This document shows, in pieces, positions 26,274-33,511 of a stretch of DNA of 64,000 bases. This DNA comes from Naegleria gruberi (Eukaryota). How positions within the stretch are numbered: position 1 is the stretch's first letter; each line of letters begins with the position of its first letter. The position numbers and the translations under genes were made by a program. The DNA is taken from assembly GCA_000004985.1 (NCBI GenBank), contig GG738845.1; one strand, written 5' to 3'. The notes under the pieces were generated by a model. The model did no database searches. It was not told the DNA's origin and saw nothing but the letters and a program-made list of their open reading frames with translations.

Positions 26274-27395
26274 TTAAAGTTGTTGATGACCTCCTCTAAG
26301 TTTTTCCTCTCTGTATCTTCTACAATCTCTAATAACAATTAAAATGAAAGGAATTAAGAATACAAGAATGCAAAAAATGATAGCTGCAAAGATGATAAAC
26401 ATGGTAATTTCAGTTTCTGATGTAGGTGGTGTCAATGAAGTAGGAGCAAAGGAAGCTTCCAATACGTCAACTCCACTGTCAGGAGCTCCACTTGAATAAA
26501 TCCAATGATCACAAGTACCATTTGATGTCCAATGAACAGGTCCATTCAAGAAAAAGTTTCTACCATTTGCACACAAATCACATTCTGCATTATTCAAACC
26601 TTGGACAATTTCACAACTAGTGTAGTTAGCAATCAGAACGGAAACTTGAGAATTGTAAGTGACATCACCTTTGAAAGTAGCAATAAGCTTGTTGACATTA
26701 CAATCAACAACACCACTCTCCTTCAAATAAACAACCTGAGTCAAAATAAATTTCTTTGAATCCTTTTCAACAACAAAGAAGACGTCTTCCTTAGCTTGAC
26801 TTCCAAAGTAGTTTCTATTGTTTGTTGAGAGCCAATAGTAAGATCCGGTAGCATGAGGACCACGCAAGTCGCAAGATGTGGAAGGATCAACAGCTGGTAG
26901 GAAAGTGAGTGCCTTCTTGTAGAATGCTGTGAAACCAGTTAATGTTAAATCTTCACACTCATCACCAAACGTAATTTTCAATGTTTGAGAGGCAAACATT
27001 GCCTTGAATTTAGAACAGATAGCAGTGATATCATCGGCATAGTTATTGTTCAATACTACAGTACAAGTCAATGATGACATGGTGAAATTTTCAGAAATAG
27101 CATAACTTCCGTGCAAATCAACACCAACAATTGGTGTTGTGTAACCCAAAGCAGGTCCTTTCTTTTCAACAACTTTTAAGTGTACAGCACCACGATTAAC
27201 ATTGGTTGCGCTAAAAGCTTGTAATTTCATGTGAATGTCAACTTGGAGGTTAGCTCCTGTACGTGGAGTAACTTGCCACCAGGTTTCGTCATGAGAAAGA
27301 CAAAGTTGTTCATTATCTGATTGTTGAATAGATGATTGTACTAAAAACAATATCATCATGATGAAAAGCACCACGTGTACCCTGGACGTTGCCAT
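26274..27395 (-). CDS. type-I membrane glycoprotein (373 aa): signal peptide, Cys-containing ectodomain with many N-glycosylation sites, one TM helix, short basic tail
   Basis: N-terminal hydrophobic signal (MATSRVHVVLFIMMILFLVQSSIQQ), about 300-aa ectodomain with several NxS/T sites and paired cysteines, C-terminal TM (ITMFIIFAAIIFCILVFLIPFILIVI) followed by RDCRRYREEKLRGG. Confidence 0.65.
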   Translation of the reverse strand: MATSRVHVVLFIMMILFLVQSSIQQSDNEQLCLSHDETWWQVTPRTGANLQVDIHMKLQAFSATNVNRGAVHLKVVEKKGPALGYTTPIVGVDLHGSYAISENFTMSSLTCTVVLNNNYADDITAICSKFKAMFASQTLKITFGDECEDLTLTGFTAFYKKALTFLPAVDPSTSCDLRGPHATGSYYWLSTNNRNYFGSQAKEDVFFVVEKDSKKFILTQVVYLKESGVVDCNVNKLIATFKGDVTYNSQVSVLIANYTSCEIVQGLNNAECDLCANGRNFFLNGPVHWTSNGTCDHWIYSSGAPDSGVDVLEASFAPTSLTPPTSETEITMFIIFAAIIFCILVFLIPFILIVIRDCRRYREEKLRGGHQQL

Positions 27396-27634
27396 TTCTT
27401 CTTAGATCTTGTGAAAAAAGAATTCCGTATGAAGAGAGTTATGTTGGATAACAGTTGTGAAACCTACTTCCAATGTGTTTTGGTTGAGAGAACTTTGTAT
27501 TTTTTTTTTAATTAATTTCTTTATTCAATAAAGCCAACAGTCCCAGAAATGGTCAACAGATATCAGAAAAAATAATTGTTCTAAAACCATTATTCTTGAT
27601 ATTATTCCATTTTATTTCCATTTTATTTTCAATG

Positions 27635-30600
27635 TTAGACAACATTTGGTGAATTTGGTGAATTAGGTGAGCTTAGTCTAATTAAATTTGCTTTAGAATT
27701 CTTTCTGTGGGATGCATAGAATAAAAAATCAATATCTGGGTCACTTCTTGGTGACTCAGTTCCAGAATTGTTTGGAGAATCATCATCAATGTTCAAGTCA
27801 AGTTTTGACATTGAACCTATACTAAGGGAGCTCATTGCAAAGTCTTCAAATCTTATTTTGGAATGTAATTCTTGGTGGATATTGTAAACATAACCTTTAG
27901 CCCTTCTCTTTCTCTTAATGATTATTACTGTTGCAACAATTACTATTACAATAACAAAAACAATCGAGAATCTTCTGGTATTTGAGGCTCAGTAAGAGAA
28001 CAATTGCTTCCATAATAAGGTGATTCACAAATACATTGGTTTGGGGAGACACATTTTCCATGTCCATTACAAACAGCTATATTGGCGGATTCAACTTCAA
28101 AACAAACAGGAATTTCACATTGAGAGCCTGTAAATTCAGTTTGATTACATTTACATGTATTAGGGCTCTCACAAATTCCTTTTCCATTACAAACTGTTGG
28201 ATCAGTGCTAAATTTTTGATAACAAATAGAAAGTTCACAATCTTGACCGGAATAGCCATTTGTACAAACGCACTTATCTGGTGAAACACAATTTCCTCTT
28301 GAGTGACAAACGTTTGGATCGTTGTTTGTTTAGTTAAAGCAAACAGGATATTGACAATGGGTACCACTATACCCATTATTACAAGTACAATCGTCAATGT
28401 TTTGGCAATAACCATTACCGTTGCACATTTTTGAGGTTTCATTAGAAAGAATTGAGTAACATGAGAAAAGCTCACAATTAGGGTTTGAGTATCCCAATTG
28501 GCAATCACATCTATCAAGTGCTGAACAGTTTCCTTGGCCATTACAAACTGATGTCAACTCTGATCTTACACCAAAACATGAATGAGTTTCACAATTTTGG
28601 TCAAAGTATCCAATTCCACACTCACAATGGTTAGGAGATTTACAAATTCCATTTCCACTACAGACTGTACTTTCATTAGAAGGAATTCCAAAACAAATAG
28701 GAATTGAGCAAGTGGTCCCAGTAAAACCTTGAACACATTCACAAACATCAGGAGCAATACAAACTCCATAATTGCAAATAGATGGATCCTTGGAACCATA
28801 ACAAATTGATAGGTTGCAATATTGTCCAAAATAGCCAGCACTACAGAAGCAAGAATCAGGAGAAACACAAGATCCATGACAACTACAGACATTTGGTGAA
28901 TTAAACAATTCTGAATAACATGAGTATTCATCACACTTGGAGCCGTTATACCCAAGAGAGCATTTACAAACATCCAAAGAAGTACATTCACCTAATCCAC
29001 TGCAAACAAGTGAGTTGTTAGATAATAAGGAGAAACAATAAGGTAAATCACATTTTTCACCATAATAATCACTATTACAAGAACAATTATTGAGAGAATC
29101 ACAAGAACCATGTCCACTACAAACCAAAGAAGAATTGGACGTGATTCCAAAACATGTACCAACTTCCGCTACAAACATTAGAATGATTTGATTCCGAAAC
29201 ATGAAGTGATGGAACAGTCCCATCCATAATAGCCATCATTACAAACACATTTATCAATTTGGGAGCAAGTACCATTCAAGAAATTACAAACACTGGGATC
29301 ACTGTTAGCAACTCCAAAGCATGAGTGATTTTGGCAATTAGTACCACTATAACCATAAGAACAATCACATAAGTTTGGTCCTAAACAACTGCCCTTTCCA
29401 CTGCAAACATAGGAAGAATTTGAAATAATCCCACTACAATAGGTCAAATTACAAGAACTACTAAACCATTCGCTGTGGCAGGTACAAGAATCATAATTAA
29501 AACAGTCTCCATTTCCACTACAAACAGATACGCTGGTAGAGTTAGTACTATAACATGTAGTTTGATTGGCAAGAACAAGTATTCAGAGCTAGGCATGAAC
29601 CTTTGCCGCTGCATACATCAACAGAGATACTTGTACGACCAAAACATGTTGTAATATTACAGTTTGAACCAAAATATCCAGTGTCACACGTGCAAGAGGC
29701 ATTGCTATTGCATTGCCCTTTCCCATTACAAACTTTTGTATCATTAGAATTAACTCCAAAACATGAAGTAACATTACAATCCAAGCCGAAATAATTAGGT
29801 TTACAACTACAAGTATTTGGATAAGTGCAGTTTCCATTCGAACTGCAAACATGGGCACTATTTGAGTTAATATTAAAGCAAATTGGATATTGACACTCTT
29901 GACCTGTATACCCGCTCAAACATGAGCAGGTATTTGGTCCAATACAAGATCCGTGACCATTACAAGCCCGTGAATCGTTAGAGGGAATTGAAAAGCATTT
30001 GGGATATTGACATTGATCCCCTGTGTATTGTAATTGACAAGAACAAGTATTATTCCCAATACAGGTACCATTCTGATAATTACAGACAGCTGACTCATTG
30101 TACATTTTCCCATAACAAATAGGAATACTACAATCAAAACCTGCCCAATTACCGTAGCATTGACAAAAATCTGGATTTGCGCAATATCCATTACCACTAC
30201 ACACCTTGCTATTTGTGCTTAAAGTTCCAAAGCAGATAGGATCGTTACAATCGGATCCATTATATCCGTATGTTGTATTACAAATACATGTATCCTGTTG
30301 AATGCAATTTCCTCTACCAGAGCAAACATTATCATCACTGAAATTTCTTCCGCTACATTCAAAATAACATTCAATAAGGAAAGTACTCCCTGCAGCAACA
30401 TCAATAATAACGCCTCTTGTAATTTGCTTTTCTTCCAGAGAAACTCTAGTAAATGTTAATAATTCAGGTGATTTTACCTCATAGCTTAGAATCATTGTTT
30501 GTTGGAATTTGAAGAGCATAATTATCACCAAATCCCAACACCTTTCCATCTCTTGTAAGTAGGAGTGTGAGATCAGCAGCTGATGCCTTAATAATAAAGT

Positions 30601-32376
30601 AACCATCTGTTTTGATTTTTGTAGGATATGGAGATGATAGATCTGAAATCTTTGTTGAATTTGGTTGGAGTAGAAGCTACTGTTTGTGAATAAATCAACC
30701 TGTCATTCACATAATTTACATTTTCTAAAGGTAACCTTCCCATAAAAAAGATATCATTTTCATCATTTAAAAACATTAAACTTCTTCTACTGGCAAAACG
30801 ATTAACAATATTTTCTCCAATCAAGTCTCCCATTTCAGAAATTAAATTAAATTTCGTATAACTTTGGTTCGTTAAAAAGTCCAATGTTCTCACTGTTCCA
30901 TCAACCAATATTCCAGTTGTAGTTGAACCTACTGCCAACTTAATATCACTATTTTCAGTAAATACAAGTTTTGGAATAAAGTTGTAATGTTTCATGGTGT
31001 TTGCACCCCATAAAAATAAGGTTCCATTTGCTAACAAATAAGATGTATATCCAGAGCTGAAAATCTTTAGTGGAATGTTGGCAGAACCAGTAACAGTTGA
31101 CAAAACACCTTTTTCGTAAACTTGTGTTGGTTTAGATGTTGGTAATCTATTCTTTTCAATACCCAACTGGCCAGCACTACCTTGGCCAAATGAGTAAACA
31201 TGGCCATTTTTCGTGCTAATCATGCAATAATCATTTCCAAGCAATATCATCAGGATCTCCAGATAAATCATCTGCTGTGACAAGTATTGGTACAGCAGTT
31301 CTTCTTAGTGTGGAATTTAGTTGACCAAATGAATTCTCCCCCACAGTGTAGATACCCTTATCAACCTTCAACAGTAAGCTGGAAGATCCAATAGCTACCT
31401 TTTCAACAACATTTGATCCTATGCCAGTAACTTTGGTTAAAGTGTAATTTAAAGACAACACAGATTCATCACCAGAAAAAACATATCCCATCCAATATAA
31501 ATTCCCGCTTGTATCAATAACAGAGGAAAATTTGTTAAATTTTGAAACATAGATCTTGGATGCAACCTTCTTCCAGGAATTGACTATTTGGGGTGAAGAT
31601 AAGGAAATATTGTAAGTGGTCACAGTATGATTAATGTATAACTTTTCTTGTAGAGTTTCAATCATAGTAGCATTACAACACATTCTCTTTGTAATGTTTG
31701 TTTGGTTATTAAAGAGGTCATAACTTAATACTGACATGGTGGTGTTATCACATTCAACATAATCTTCACTACAATTGTAATTAGAAAGATCATAATATAG
31801 TTGTTCTGTTGTTGTGATATTGAAATCTCCAATAGTACCACCTATTTCACCACAAACTTGAATTGATCCATCTGAGGCAAGGAACTTTGAGTATGTACCA
31901 ATACTCATGTGTTGTATTGGGTATGCATAGGTGAAGCTTATTTGGGTGGGAGTTGAAACAGTGCTAAGTCCTTCATACCTACTACCCAAACAGAGCTCGT
32001 TATTGTTGTTCGATCCAAAGCTGTAAACAGAGCCTGTGTCTGTATGCTGCCCAGTACCAATTTCAATAATCCTTCCTGCCCATGTTGAAGTATTAACAGG
32101 CATTGGAATAAAATGGGATACGAAGTTTCCTGTACCTAGAGCACCATAATTGTTATCCCCAAATGAATATAGTCCACCATCTGAGGTGAGAATGAGAGTA
32201 TGTACTGCTGAGCTTGAAATCTGCACTTTTGTTTTATCTGTAAGATAGTCAAATTGGAGAGGTAAAAATGAATACAAAAGATCAGTTCCTAGACTTCCTT
32301 TGTGAGCTCCTGTTGCATAAAGGCTACTTGTTCCTCCCTTACATGATAAAGTACTAACATCAATAACTTTGCACAC
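27635..32376 (-). CDS. giant surface-protein gene: RCC1-like beta-propeller (about 590 aa), about 25 tandem EGF-like cysteine-rich repeats, TM helix and cytoplasmic tail. Fragmented by at least 5 frame disruptions (pseudogene or mis-assembled repeat gene)
   Basis: ORFs 31231-32376 and 30588-31283 carry RCC1 blades (…YSFGDNNYGALGTGN…, …VYSFGQGSAGQLGIEK…). ORFs 29548-30606, 29178-29447, 28330-29223 and the frame continuing to about 27960 carry about 33-aa repeats with the pattern C.C..GY.G..C....CFG....S..VCSG.G.C. There is then a TM helix (IVFVIVIVIVATVIIIKRKRRAKGY) and a tail ending SPNSPNSPNVV (ORF 27635-27835). Adjacent segments are in different frames with overlaps too short for introns. 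The TM junction is repaired by one extra T in a T5 run near 27955-27965. Confidence 0.55.
27990..30330 (-). repeat. coding tandem array of about 25 EGF-like (tenascin/laminin-type) cysteine-rich repeats, about 99 nt each
   Basis: A periodic CxCxxGYxGxxC...CFG...VCSGxGxC motif is read on the minus strand. The repeat structure also generates the spurious antisense and alternate-frame ORFs listed in the track (28077-28541, 28566-28991, 29589-29858, 29916-30197, 30219-30404). Confidence 0.75.
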
Positions 32377-32416
32377 TGACTAGCAAACAAAAAAGCACAA
32401 CAACAAAAAAATCGGG

Positions 32417-33511
32417 ATGCGTGATGGAATGAGATACACTCTGATCAAAAAAATGTCATTATCTGATGAACACACCAAAATCATTTCTTCAGCTCTCTCT
32501 TCATCTGATGATGTGAGAATTGGAGAAATTATTTTTGATGCTTCTAAATATATTTCTGAAATGGGATTGGATAAATTTATTGCACAATATGTTTCAAATA
32601 ACACTAGTCTGGTACATGTTGCTGTTATAGGATTCCCTTTTGATGAAGGTGTAAAAAGAAACGGAGGAAGAGTAGGATCAAAACATGCACCAACTTCATT
32701 CAGAAAGATGATACGACGTGCAGGAACTGTAGTAAATCCTGAAAATAATATTAATTGTAGTTCTCTTAGGATTGTAGATTTAGGAAATGTCGTAATTGAT
32801 GATGAAACTAACCTTGAAGAGGCACACCAAAGATTAGAAGAATATGTATTTAAAGCTTTTAATATTTTACAAGCAGAAACTGTCTTTGTTATTGGAGGTG
32901 GTAATGATGAAAGCTTTTCAAACGCAAAAGGATTATTAAGACATGTTCAACAATTTGATAAAGTAGGAGTGGTAAATATAGATGCACATTTAGATGTAAG
33001 AGATTTGAAAAATGGGCTTCACCATTCTGGTTCTCCATTTAGACGTTTATTGGAAACTGATGGATTTGTTGGAAAACATTTTGTGGAGTTTGGGGCTCAG
33101 GGCACTCAATGCTCACAAACACATGCAAATTTTGTGTATGAAAAGGAGGCAAAAATTTATTGGCTTTCAAAGGACATAAAGGATGAACAATCTGCCCTAC
33201 CAATATTTAAAAAAGTGATTGAAGAAGATTTCAAGAATACTGAGAAAATATTTGTGAGCTTTGATTTGGATTGTGTTTCAATGTCATGGGCAAGTGGTGT
33301 CTCTTGTCCTTCTCCACTTGGTTTAACTGCTCAAAACGCTTTGGATATTGCATTCTATTCTGGAAATAATTCAAAAGTTAAATTATTTGATTTAAGTGAA
33401 TACAATCCAATAATAGAGGAATACAATACTGGAAAGTTAGTTGCAGCAATTTTTGTCCAGTTTGTACTTGGAGTAGCAAGCAAAACAAAGATTGGATCGA
33501 GTACTATTTAA
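32417..33511 (+). CDS. arginase-family ureohydrolase (arginase / agmatinase / formiminoglutamase-like)
   Basis: Family motifs: GFPFDEGVKRNGGRVGSKHAP, VIGGGNDESF (GGDHS-type loop), NIDAHLDVRD (DAHxD), VSFDLDCVSMSWASG (SxDxD metal site). The true start may be the second Met at about 32453 (MSLSDEH). Confidence 0.8.
   Translation: MRDGMRYTLIKKMSLSDEHTKIISSALSSSDDVRIGEIIFDASKYISEMGLDKFIAQYVSNNTSLVHVAVIGFPFDEGVKRNGGRVGSKHAPTSFRKMIRRAGTVVNPENNINCSSLRIVDLGNVVIDDETNLEEAHQRLEEYVFKAFNILQAETVFVIGGGNDESFSNAKGLLRHVQQFDKVGVVNIDAHLDVRDLKNGLHHSGSPFRRLLETDGFVGKHFVEFGAQGTQCSQTHANFVYEKEAKIYWLSKDIKDEQSALPIFKKVIEEDFKNTEKIFVSFDLDCVSMSWASGVSCPSPLGLTAQNALDIAFYSGNNSKVKLFDLSEYNPIIEEYNTGKLVAAIFVQFVLGVASKTKIGSSTI

What the first reader, a model, noticed from the sequence alone, without database searches (positions are those of the whole stretch)
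27635..32416. Giant RCC1-propeller / EGF-repeat / transmembrane gene broken by at least five frame disruptions
On the minus strand a single evident coding unit runs from about 32376 to 27635. Its parts, in order, are:
- RCC1-like blades
- a beta-rich linker
- about 25 tandem ~33-aa EGF-like repeats (C.C..GY.G..C....CFG....VCSG.G.C)
- a transmembrane helix
- a short tail ending SPNSPNSPNVV

I know of no described family that combines an RCC1 propeller with an EGF array and a TM anchor. It would be a very large adhesion or receptor-like surface protein.

The unit is split into six or more ORFs in different frames, with junctions at about 31234-31283, 30588-30606, 29450-29548, 29178-29223 and 27960. 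The overlaps are 19-50 nt, too short for the 34-55-nt introns used elsewhere in the window. Two junctions are consistent with 1-nt indels. One of them (TM junction) is repaired by adding one T to a T5 run: ...EPQIPEDSRLFFVIVIVIVATVIIIKRKRR.... The junction near 29550 also lacks about 5 residues of the repeat consensus, so a repeat may have been collapsed or a small deletion occurred.

Every other long gene in the window is intact. This gene is therefore either a genuine recently decayed pseudogene or an internally repetitive gene that was mis-assembled or mis-called (454-type homopolymer errors plus repeat collapse).

Its 5' end is also unresolved. The first RCC1 ORF has no ATG for about 150 codons. 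The only candidate signal-peptide-like segment (…RIPIFLLLCFFVC, upstream frame 32380-32604) is separated from it by an in-frame TAG and overlaps the 5' end of the divergent arginase-family gene.
Basis: partly seen in the sequence, partly recalled or inferred. Interest (0 to 1): 0.75.

Follow-up and report, generated by a model that had tools for sequence, protein, structure and literature searches.

The report
Dead Naegleria RCC1–EGF surface-receptor gene
This is the decayed remnant (a pseudogene) of a large Naegleria gruberi cell-surface protein gene with an RCC1 propeller head on an EGF-repeat stalk; intact versions exist in other protists, so the locus is mainly of interest for correcting the annotation.

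Summary
The window is Naegleria gruberi NEG-M, a Sanger-sequenced genome. On the minus strand, 32379-27635 is one ancestral gene of about 1,570 codons: about 11 RCC1 blades, 20 EGF-like units of 39-40 aa plus one partial unit, a TM helix and a 90-aa tail.

I find:
- two single +1 frameshifts (about 31250-31234 and about 30484-30478; the second was missed)
- a 26-nt deletion inside EGF unit 7 (about 29568-29556)
- a 47-nt extra partial unit (29200-29154)
- a point nonsense TAA (28332-28330, missed)
- a -1 shift at a T5 run (27960-27956)
- no start codon or signal peptide

One "junction" (30719-30677) is probably a normal 43-nt intron.

The EGF units are only 60-72% identical at the DNA level, so repeat collapse is unlikely. 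All flanking genes are intact. Coding signal and every cysteine survive, so the decay is recent.

Intact proteins with the same layout (signal peptide, RCC1, EGF, TM, tail) exist in another protist and in metagenomes, and plant CRINKLY4 is a precedent. Best reading: a young unitary pseudogene (about 0.8). GenBank XP_002683375.1 is a fragment of it. Interest is low to moderate.

The parts
32383..32452 (-). The roughly 73-nt gap to the divergent arginase-family gene. It is T-rich and translates in frame 1 as ...IPIFLLLCFFVC (32415-32383). It holds no minus-strand ATG. This is where a start codon and signal peptide would be expected.
   Evidence: Sequence. Codon log-odds place the arginase start at ATG 32453. 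Homologues carry the signal peptide 13-22 aa before the first blade.
32380..32382 (-). In-frame TAG directly upstream of the first RCC1 blade.
31234..32379 (-). Piece 1 (frame 1): N-terminal RCC1 blades plus an insert of about 110 aa rich in N-x-S/T. GenBank model XP_002683375.1 / NAEGRDRAFT_61116 covers only 32103-31231.
   Evidence: Pfam RCC1 76.5 bits against a cut-off of 21.7. P0001 is 100% identical.
31231..31250 (-). Lesion J1: +1 frameshift (1 nt extra or 2 nt missing), followed by TGA at 31233-31231.
   Evidence: Frame 1 is still coding in 31299-31240 (+19.5 against -7.7 for frame 2). The frameshift reading keeps the canonical GQL-x9-P..V-...-LLGNDYCM blade spacing. The family profile gives 168.6 bits for the frameshift against 160.3 for the only GT..AG alternative.
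30720..31250 (-). Piece 2 (frame 2): RCC1 blades.
   Evidence: Pfam RCC1 31.3 bits, WD40_RLD 44.6 bits. Codon log-odds 0.31 per codon.
30677..30719 (-). Probable 43-nt intron (GTAAAT...CAGTAG) taking frame 2 to frame 0. The alternative is an early +1 frameshift.
   Evidence: Candidate list. Same donor and size class as verified introns of the neighbouring RCC1 gene. Best family-profile score, 168.6 against 166.7 and 163.8. Frame 0 is favoured from 30676 on. Its GC of 30% is higher than the 13-24% of the real introns, so this is not settled.
30482..30676 (-). Piece 3 (frame 0): the RCC1 blade ...PTKIKTDGYFIIKASAADLTLLLTRDGKVLGFGDNYALQIPTNNDSKL.
   Evidence: RCC1_2, 19.3 bits, E 0.001; +20.7 over 41 codons.
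30478..30484 (-). Lesion J3: +1 frameshift. The blade runs to the TGA at 30481-30479 and continues in frame 1 as EVKSPELLTF...VIIDVAAGSTFLIE. There is no room for an intron.
29569..30478 (-). Piece 4 (frame 1): last RCC1 strand and EGF-like units 1-7.
   Evidence: Pfam EGF_2 84.5 bits, EGF_Teneurin 80.2 bits. Unit list.
29556..29568 (-). Lesion J4: site of a 26-nt deletion in unit 7. It removes ..GYxGxxC.. including the sixth cysteine, and the frame goes to frame 2.
   Evidence: Landmark spacing 91 = 117-26 nt. Sequence.
29201..29555 (-). Piece 5 (frame 2): EGF-like units 8-10.
29154..29200 (-). Lesion J5/J6: 47 extra nt encoding the first part of a unit (FGIKSNHSNVCSGS). Removing them gives a perfect in-frame ...DCSITSCFGITSNSSLVCSGHGSC. 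It is either a partial duplication or a unit that lost 70 nt.
   Evidence: Landmark spacing 167 = 120+47 nt. Sequence. No GT..AG borders in any register.
28333..29153 (-). Piece 7 (frame 1): EGF-like units 11-17 and the start of unit 18.
   Evidence: Pfam EGF_Teneurin 88.5 bits, EGF_2 86.7 bits.
28330..28332 (-). Lesion: in-frame TAA occupying a normal codon position of unit 18 (CFN*TNNDPNVC, with C1-C2 spacing kept). This is a point nonsense substitution.
27961..28329 (-). Piece 8 (frame 1): EGF-like units 18-20 and the juxtamembrane stretch EPQIPEDSRL.
   Evidence: Pfam EGF_2 62.5 bits.
27956..27960 (-). Lesion J8: -1 frameshift at a T5 run at the start of the TM helix.
   Evidence: All GT..AG alternatives delete the TM helix or conserved cysteines.
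27635..27955 (-). Piece 9 (frame 0): TM helix (to about 27917), KRKRR stop-transfer, cytoplasmic tail of about 90 aa ending SPNSPNSPNVV, and TAA at 27637-27635.
   Evidence: Highest Kyte-Doolittle 19-residue window of the whole protein, 2.6..

Best explanation
The locus is a young unitary pseudogene in Naegleria gruberi NEG-M. Its ancestor encoded a type I membrane protein of about 1,570 aa. From the outside in, that protein had a signal peptide, an extracellular RCC1-type beta-propeller region (about 11 blade motifs), a stalk of about 20 teneurin/tenascin-type EGF-like units, one TM helix and a tail of about 90 aa.

By analogy with other propeller-on-cysteine-rich-stalk receptors, it most likely bound a ligand or surface through the propeller head. 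That function is inferred, not shown.

The gene has since acquired at least six independent disabling lesions:
- loss of the start codon and signal peptide, with an upstream TAG
- two +1 frameshifts in the propeller
- a 26-nt deletion in the EGF array
- a 47-nt partial-unit insertion in the EGF array
- one nonsense substitution
- one -1 frameshift at the TM helix

Because codon usage and every EGF cysteine are still intact, inactivation was recent relative to the point-substitution rate. No full-length protein can be made. The annotated 290-aa 'predicted protein' is an ORF fragment of the wreck.
For: Shown:
- Organism and annotation: P0001, 100% identical, is XP_002683375.1, N. gruberi.
- Domain content.
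- One ancestral gene: single BLASTP HSPs of the repaired protein run collinearly across J1, J2 and J3 and into the EGF array. Residues 338-1001 match P0025 29-729 (E 6e-75) and residues 288-924 match P0002 17-650 (E 2e-67).
- Lesions mapped.
- Introns rejected for all junctions but one.
- EGF landmark spacing is a multiple of 3 (111-123 nt) at 17 of 19 steps. The exceptions are 91 and 167 nt.
- Units are 60-72% identical at the DNA level and TRF finds no array.
- The genome is Sanger sequenced.
- Flanking ORFs 240 nt and about 40-70 nt away, and ORFs up to 1,408 aa elsewhere in the window, are open.
- The coding signal of the pieces is 0.16-0.42 bit per codon (mean 0.26), against 0.26-0.47 for intact genes.
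- All complete units keep their six cysteines.
- Intact proteins of the same architecture exist elsewhere.
- No close paralogue or orthologue was detected.

Inferred: the ancestral function, the recency of the decay, and the unitary status.
Against: - There is only one assembly and no reads or transcripts, so none of the lesions is independently confirmed.
- Four of the lesions are 1-nt-scale shifts, one of them at a T5 run. These are the kind of error a consensus can contain.
- Having many indels but no lost cysteine is a somewhat indel-heavy spectrum for neutral decay.
- NEG-M is heterozygous (PMC9928731, citing Fritz-Laylin 2010), so an intact second allele cannot be excluded.
Confidence: 0.8

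Rival explanations
1. Sequence or assembly artefact: the gene is intact in the organism, and the disruptions are consensus errors concentrated in this locus.
For: - Several lesions are single-nucleotide frame changes, one at a T5 run.
- Coding signal and all cysteines are preserved.
- No independent sequence of the locus could be found.
Against: - The assembly is Sanger, not 454.
- J1 and J3 are not in homopolymers.
- The 26-nt deletion and 47-nt insertion cannot come from collapse of repeats that are only 60-72% identical.
- The TAA is a substitution at a normal codon position.
- There is no ATG.
- An error density of at least 6 per 4.7 kb here contrasts with none in the adjacent genes or in ORFs up to 4.2 kb in the same window.
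Confidence: 0.1
2. A functional gene that is read through by unrecognised introns and/or programmed +1 ribosomal frameshifting and stop-codon readthrough. The frame order 1,2,0,1,2,0,1 looks like six successive +1 shifts, each ending at a stop codon.
For: - The run of +1 changes.
- J1 has AAA-TGA, resembling Euplotes-type AAA-stop shift sites (my own knowledge).
- One junction really can be a 43-nt intron.
Against: - The six '+1' steps resolve into two single shifts, one probable intron, one 26-nt deletion and one 47-nt insertion that counts as two steps.
- The deletion removes a structural cysteine, and the insertion adds half a unit with three cysteines, whatever the ribosome does.
- The codons before the stops (AAA, TAT, CTA, TTA, TTC) share no slippery motif.
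- The last shift is -1.
- There is no start codon.
- No other gene in the window needs recoding.
Confidence: 0.03
3. Several separate small genes (as in the GenBank annotation, which calls a 290-aa protein from 32103-31231) rather than one unit.
For: P0001 is an annotated model, and several pieces begin with ATG in the ORF listing.
Against: - Blades and EGF units are cut in mid-motif at each boundary.
- The pieces lack signal peptides although they are cysteine-rich extracellular modules.
- Homologues align as one collinear HSP across the boundaries.
- The ATGs of the pieces lie in out-of-frame overlap sequence.
Confidence: 0.03

Closest known systems
Unnamed protist family with signal peptide, RCC1 propeller, EGF array, TM and tail. 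Members: EukProt proteins P0025 'gene10768-3387_t', P0128 'gene6174-10181_t', P0002 'gene4915-8503_t'; JGI metagenome proteins P0138, P0136, P0030, P0013, P0015.
   Same: - Same domain order, and collinear alignment at 26-30% identity across the RCC1-EGF boundary, with 35-42% identity inside the EGF array.
- Same 39-aa CFG..VCSG.G.C..C.C..GY.G..C unit.
- P0025 and P0128 also have a TM helix followed by basic residues and a tail of about 80 aa.
   Different: - Those proteins are intact and shorter (about 7 blades and 7-12 EGF units).
- The Naegleria locus has about four extra N-terminal blades with a 110-aa insert and about 20 units, and it is disrupted.
- The tails show no obvious similarity.
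- The family has no literature or name that I could find.
Plant CRINKLY4 (CR4/ACR4) receptor-like kinases
   Same: Type I membrane proteins with an extracellular RCC1-type repeat domain followed by cysteine-rich repeats and one TM helix (PMC12487043).
   Different: - CR4 has TNFR-type, not EGF-type, cysteine-rich repeats.
- CR4 has a cytoplasmic kinase domain, whereas the tail here has no Pfam domain.
- No sequence relationship was tested beyond the shared Pfam families.
Animal beta-propeller plus EGF surface proteins (LDL-receptor family YWTD propeller/EGF modules; teneurin EGF array plus NHL propeller)
   Same: - General design: a propeller ligand-binding head combined with EGF modules on a single-pass membrane protein (my own knowledge).
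- The EGF units hit the Pfam Teneurin EGF models.
   Different: The propeller type differs (RCC1, not YWTD or NHL) and so does the domain order. This is analogy only, not membership.
Cytoplasmic/nuclear RCC1-like-domain proteins (RCC1, HERC, RPGR, UVR8) and secreted bacterial RCC1 proteins
   Same: RCC1 repeats pass Pfam's gathering cut-off. The nearest non-family hits to the propeller are RPGR-like and bacterial 'alpha-tubulin suppressor-like RCC1 family' proteins.
   Different: Here the RCC1 region sits on the extracellular side of the TM helix. It carries 14 N-x-S/T sequons (not significantly more than in shuffles) and is fused to EGF units.

Membership tests
RCC1-like domain proteins (Pfam PF00415/PF13540/PF25390) | RCC1 repeats scoring above Pfam's gathering cut-off | tested here: met
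   Piece 1: RCC1 76.5 bits (cut-off 21.7), RCC1_2 51.4 (22). Piece 2: RCC1 31.3. Piece 3: RCC1_2 19.3, just below 22.
RCC1-like domain proteins (Pfam PF00415/PF13540/PF25390) | A closed seven-bladed propeller | not tested
EGF-like repeat proteins (PF07974 EGF_2, PF23106 EGF_Teneurin, PF25024 EGF_TEN) | Six-cysteine EGF units above the gathering cut-off, in tandem | tested here: met
   EGF_2 scores 42-87 bits per piece (cut-off 22.1). There are 20 units of 36-41 aa, all with six cysteines except unit 7 (truncated; C6 lost) and unit 13 (one extra Cys).
Type I single-pass membrane protein | N-terminal signal peptide | tested here: not met
   There is no ATG on the minus strand between 32452 and 32380, and a TAG precedes the first blade. 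Only an F/L-rich translation of T-rich DNA is present.
Type I single-pass membrane protein | One hydrophobic helix followed by basic residues, C-terminal to the ectodomain | tested here: met
   FVIVIVIVATVIII followed by KRKRR gives the top Kyte-Doolittle window, 2.6. No dedicated TM predictor was available.
Pseudogene (unitary, non-processed) | Homology to a protein-coding family with multiple frame disruptions or premature stops that splicing cannot remove | tested here: met
Pseudogene (unitary, non-processed) | The lesions are real in the genome, and there is no functional transcript or protein | not testable with these tools
   No reads, ESTs or a second assembly were reachable.
Pseudogene (unitary, non-processed) | No intact paralogue in the same genome | tested here: inconclusive
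   No other N. gruberi protein appeared in the searches with pieces 1-4. However, those searches see only annotated proteins, and the top lists are dominated by giant multi-RCC1 proteins.
Programmed +1 frameshift genes (Euplotes-type, antizyme-type) | A shared slippery motif at each shift, with an otherwise intact product | tested here: not met
   The codons before the stops differ (AAA, TAT, CTA, TTA, TTC). A 26-nt deletion and a 47-nt insertion damage EGF units in any frame.

The most novel reading that the evidence does not exclude
The signal peptide / RCC1 propeller / EGF stalk / TM proteins form a real and so far undescribed family of protist surface receptors. They would be a protist counterpart of plant CRINKLY4 and of animal propeller-EGF receptors. 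Naegleria gruberi NEG-M carries its only copy as a freshly inactivated gene, or as a null allele opposite an intact one. That would give a natural knock-out for asking what such receptors do, for example in prey or substrate recognition.
Probability: 0.5. Interest if true: 0.4.

Novelty: new member of a known kind. Interest (0 to 1): 0.25.

Why it matters
The main value is annotation hygiene. The GenBank/RefSeq 'predicted protein' NAEGRDRAFT_61116 (XP_002683375.1, 290 aa) is an ORF fragment of a 4.7-kb pseudogene and should not be counted as a gene or used in orthology tables.

That arrangement is otherwise documented mainly for plant CRINKLY4. The family may deserve description, but the Naegleria copy itself is dead.

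The locus is also a worked example of how a run of apparent '+1 frameshifts' in a repeat gene dissolves into an intron, two point indels and two larger indels once repeat landmarks are measured.

Tried and rejected
1. Introns as the explanation. I enumerated every GT..AG of 15-110 nt that would carry the upstream frame into the downstream one without a stop. Only 30719-30677 (43 nt) is compatible with blade geometry, the family profile and codon statistics. The rest delete conserved P..V, GFGDN, cysteine or TM segments.
2. Repeat collapse. TRF and direct-repeat searches show no near-identical units.
3. 454 homopolymer errors. The genome is Sanger sequenced.
4. Recoding. There is no shared motif, and the larger lesions are frame-independent.
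5. Independent sequence or orthologues. The look-up of encoding contigs for P0001 returned nothing. The metagenome scan with the repaired RCC1 region gave 57 pattern matches, none confirmed. Exact look-ups of seven window ORFs found none. The full HMMER search of piece 1 gave a top list swamped by giant multi-RCC1 proteins, with no hit extending past query residue of about 206 except P0001.
6. An upstream first exon. The ATGs at 32484 and 32458 give no signal peptide, or run into a stop, and they overlap the arginase-family coding sequence.
7. Literature. There is no paper on RCC1+EGF proteins in Naegleria. The Zhang/Aravind toxin paper mentions Naegleria only in unrelated contexts. The 2010 genome paper is not held.
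8. The species behind the EukProt 'geneN-N_t' proteins could not be identified.

Full report
**Source of the window.** The 382-codon open stretch 32379-31234 (minus strand) is 100% identical over 290 residues to one database protein, P0001. That protein is XP_002683375.1 / EFC50631.1 / NAEGRDRAFT_61116, 'predicted protein [Naegleria gruberi]', on a 1.56-Mb scaffold. The window has 30-36% G+C and is densely packed with long open ORFs. The N. gruberi NEG-M genome was Sanger sequenced (PMC9928731, Table 1), so the '454-type homopolymer' scenario does not apply.

- Translating the three minus-strand frames gives a chain of stop-free pieces whose content is collinear.
- RCC1/RCC1_2/WD40_RLD Pfam hits fall in 32379-31234, 31304-30591 and 30676-30482. 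EGF_2/EGF_Teneurin/EGF_TEN hits fall in 30702-29551, 29582-29181, 29235-28333 and 28329-27949.
- The last piece, 27988-27638, has no Pfam hit. It holds the most hydrophobic 19-residue window of the whole product (FVIVIVIVATVIII, then KRKRR) and a tail of about 90 aa ending SPNSPNSPNVV.
- Codon log-odds trained on 14 intact ORFs of the window confirm which frame is coding in each piece. The signal is 0.16-0.42 bit per codon (mean 0.26), close to the 0.26-0.47 of intact genes.
- Single BLASTP HSPs between the conceptually repaired protein and intact homologues run straight across the first three junctions and into the EGF array. Repaired residues 338-1001 match P0025 29-729 (E 6e-75), and residues 288-924 match P0002 17-650 (E 2e-67).
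- The pieces are therefore one ancestral gene, not several.

**Corrections to the description.**
- The EGF-like unit is 39-40 aa (117/120 nt), with the pattern CFG-x7-VCSG-x-G-x-C-x5-C-x-C-x2-GY-x-G-x2-C-x4.
- There are 20 units plus one partial unit, not about 25 units of 33 aa.
- The 'beta-rich linker' is more RCC1 blades, although degenerate ones. About 11 blade motifs can be read, and the last strand (VIIDVAAGSTFLIE) abuts the first EGF.

**Anatomy of the lesions.** The frame order 1,2,0,1,2,0,1,(stop),1,0 looks like six successive +1 shifts, which would be odd. Measuring a landmark in each EGF unit (the V-C-S-G-x-G-x-C motif) resolves this. Seventeen of the 19 steps are 111-123 nt, all multiples of three. 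One step is 91 nt (117-26) and one is 167 nt (120+47). The lesions are then as follows.
- *The change near 29555* is a 26-nt deletion that removes the ..GY.G..C part of unit 7, including its sixth cysteine.
- *The two changes at 29223-29178* are one 47-nt insert (29200-29154). It encodes the first part of a unit. Deleting it restores a perfect ...DCSITSCFGITSNSSLVCSGHGSC. It has no GT..AG borders in any register.
- *J1 in the RCC1 part.* Frame 1 is still strongly coding in 31299-31240 (+19.5 against -7.7). The only intron-like alternative (37 nt, GTACCA..CTGGAG) would delete the canonical P..V segment of the blade, and it scores 8 bits lower against a profile of the homologues. J1 is thus a +1 frameshift within about 31250-31234.
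- *J3.* The blade GKVLGFGDNYALQIPTNNDSKL runs right to the TGA at 30481-30479 and continues in frame 1 as EVKSPELLTF...VIIDVAAGSTFLIE. This is a +1 frameshift with no room for an intron.
- *J2 is different.* A 43-nt GTAAAT...CAGTAG segment (30719-30677) has the same donor and size class as three verified introns of a neighbouring RCC1 gene (38, 46 and 42 nt). It gives the best profile score (168.6 against 166.7 and 163.8 bits), and frame 0 is favoured from 30676 on. I read it as a normal intron, with an early frameshift as the alternative, because its G+C (30%) is higher than that of the verified introns (13-24%).
- *The TAA at 28332-28330* occupies an ordinary codon position, since the C1-C2 spacing of unit 18 is unchanged. 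It is a point nonsense substitution.
- *At the TM helix* a -1 shift at the T5 run 27960-27956 is the only reading that keeps both the last EGF unit and the helix.
- *At the 5' end* a TAG (32382-32380) precedes the first blade. Codon statistics put the start of the divergent arginase-family gene at ATG 32453 rather than 32417. That leaves a T-rich gap of about 73 nt with no minus-strand ATG. Homologues have their signal peptide 13-22 residues before the first blade, so the start codon and signal peptide should be exactly here, and they are not. The 'IPIFLLLCFFVC' translation may be a relic or simply T-rich DNA.

**Pseudogene or artefact?** I could not reach reads, transcripts or a second assembly, so this rests on indirect arguments.
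- Against an artefact:
  - The chemistry is Sanger.
  - J1 and J3 are not in homopolymers.
  - The units are only 60-72% identical at the DNA level and TRF finds no array, so an assembler had nothing to collapse.
  - A nonsense substitution and a missing ATG are not indel errors.
  - At least six lesions sit in 4.7 kb, while the genes 240 nt downstream and about 70 nt upstream, and ORFs of up to 4.2 kb elsewhere in the window, are open.
- For caution:
  - Four lesions are of 1-nt scale.
  - Every complete EGF unit still has its six cysteines.
  - NEG-M is heterozygous.
- I put a genuine, recently inactivated pseudogene (possibly one allele) at about 0.8, consensus error at about 0.1, and recoding or separate genes at a few per cent each.

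**What the gene was.** The ancestral product was a type I membrane protein with an extracellular RCC1-type propeller region on a long EGF stalk. The layout is not unique.
- P0025 (846 aa) and P0128 (721 aa), from one unnamed EukProt species, are intact proteins with signal peptide, seven-blade RCC1, EGF array, TM helix, basic stop-transfer and a tail of about 80 aa.
- P0002 and the metagenomic P0138, P0136, P0030, P0013 and P0015 share RCC1+EGF and a hydrophobic C-terminal end.
- P0015 lies on a 79.7-kb contig whose called neighbours carry typically eukaryotic domains such as zf-PARP, protein kinase and F-box.
- The closest described analogue is plant CRINKLY4, which has an extracellular RCC1-type domain, TNFR-type cysteine-rich repeats, a TM helix and a kinase (PMC12487043).
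- More loosely, animal propeller-plus-EGF receptors (LDLR family, teneurins) are comparable; this comparison rests on my own knowledge.
- A ligand- or surface-binding role for the propeller head is an inference from these analogies. Nothing here tests it.
- I found no close paralogue in N. gruberi and no orthologue in other annotated proteomes, so the pseudogene is probably unitary. That test is weak.

The 454/repeat-collapse one is not.
- The novelty claim for the architecture does not hold against sequence databases, although the family is undescribed in the literature I could search.
- This is an ordinary biological object: a young pseudogene. Its practical consequence is that a RefSeq protein is a fragment of it. 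It also points to a small family of protist RCC1-EGF receptors.
- Interest: 0.25.

Noticed in passing
window 52255-50632, minus strand: A second, intact RCC1-repeat gene with three short AT-rich introns: 51620-51583 (38 nt), 51270-51225 (46 nt) and 50918-50877 (42 nt). Each is placed at the same point of successive blades, right after the G of C/S-G-G and just before xNxFGQLG. This suggests the introns were duplicated along with the repeat.
   Followed up: partly
window 32417-32452, plus strand: The first 12 codons of the arginase-family ORF (PF00491, 147 bits) have non-coding codon statistics (-1.4), against +23.3 for the next 36 codons. The real start is probably ATG 32453, which leaves only about 73 nt between the two divergent genes.
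   Followed up: partly
window 32103-31231, minus strand: GenBank/RefSeq model XP_002683375.1 (NAEGRDRAFT_61116, 290 aa) runs from the first internal ATG to the TGA created by the first frameshift. It is a pseudogene fragment annotated as a protein.
   Followed up: yes
window 26274-27395, minus strand: A 373-aa ORF immediately downstream has a signal-peptide-like N-terminus and a C-terminal hydrophobic helix but no Pfam hit. It is another putative surface protein of unknown family.
   Followed up: no
window 32379-31500 (repaired residues 1 to about 290): Relative to its intact homologues, whose whole propeller aligns to repaired residues of about 290-660, the Naegleria gene carries about four extra N-terminal RCC1 blades and a cysteine- and sequon-rich insert of about 110 aa (NITTTEQ...SSPQIVNSWKK) with no detectable relatives.
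   Followed up: partly
window 27602-27670: There are small tandem repeats at the 3' end. A 9-nt unit repeated three times encodes SPNSPNSPN at the C-terminus, and an 11-nt unit is repeated about 2.2-2.5 times in the 3' flank (TRF).
   Followed up: no
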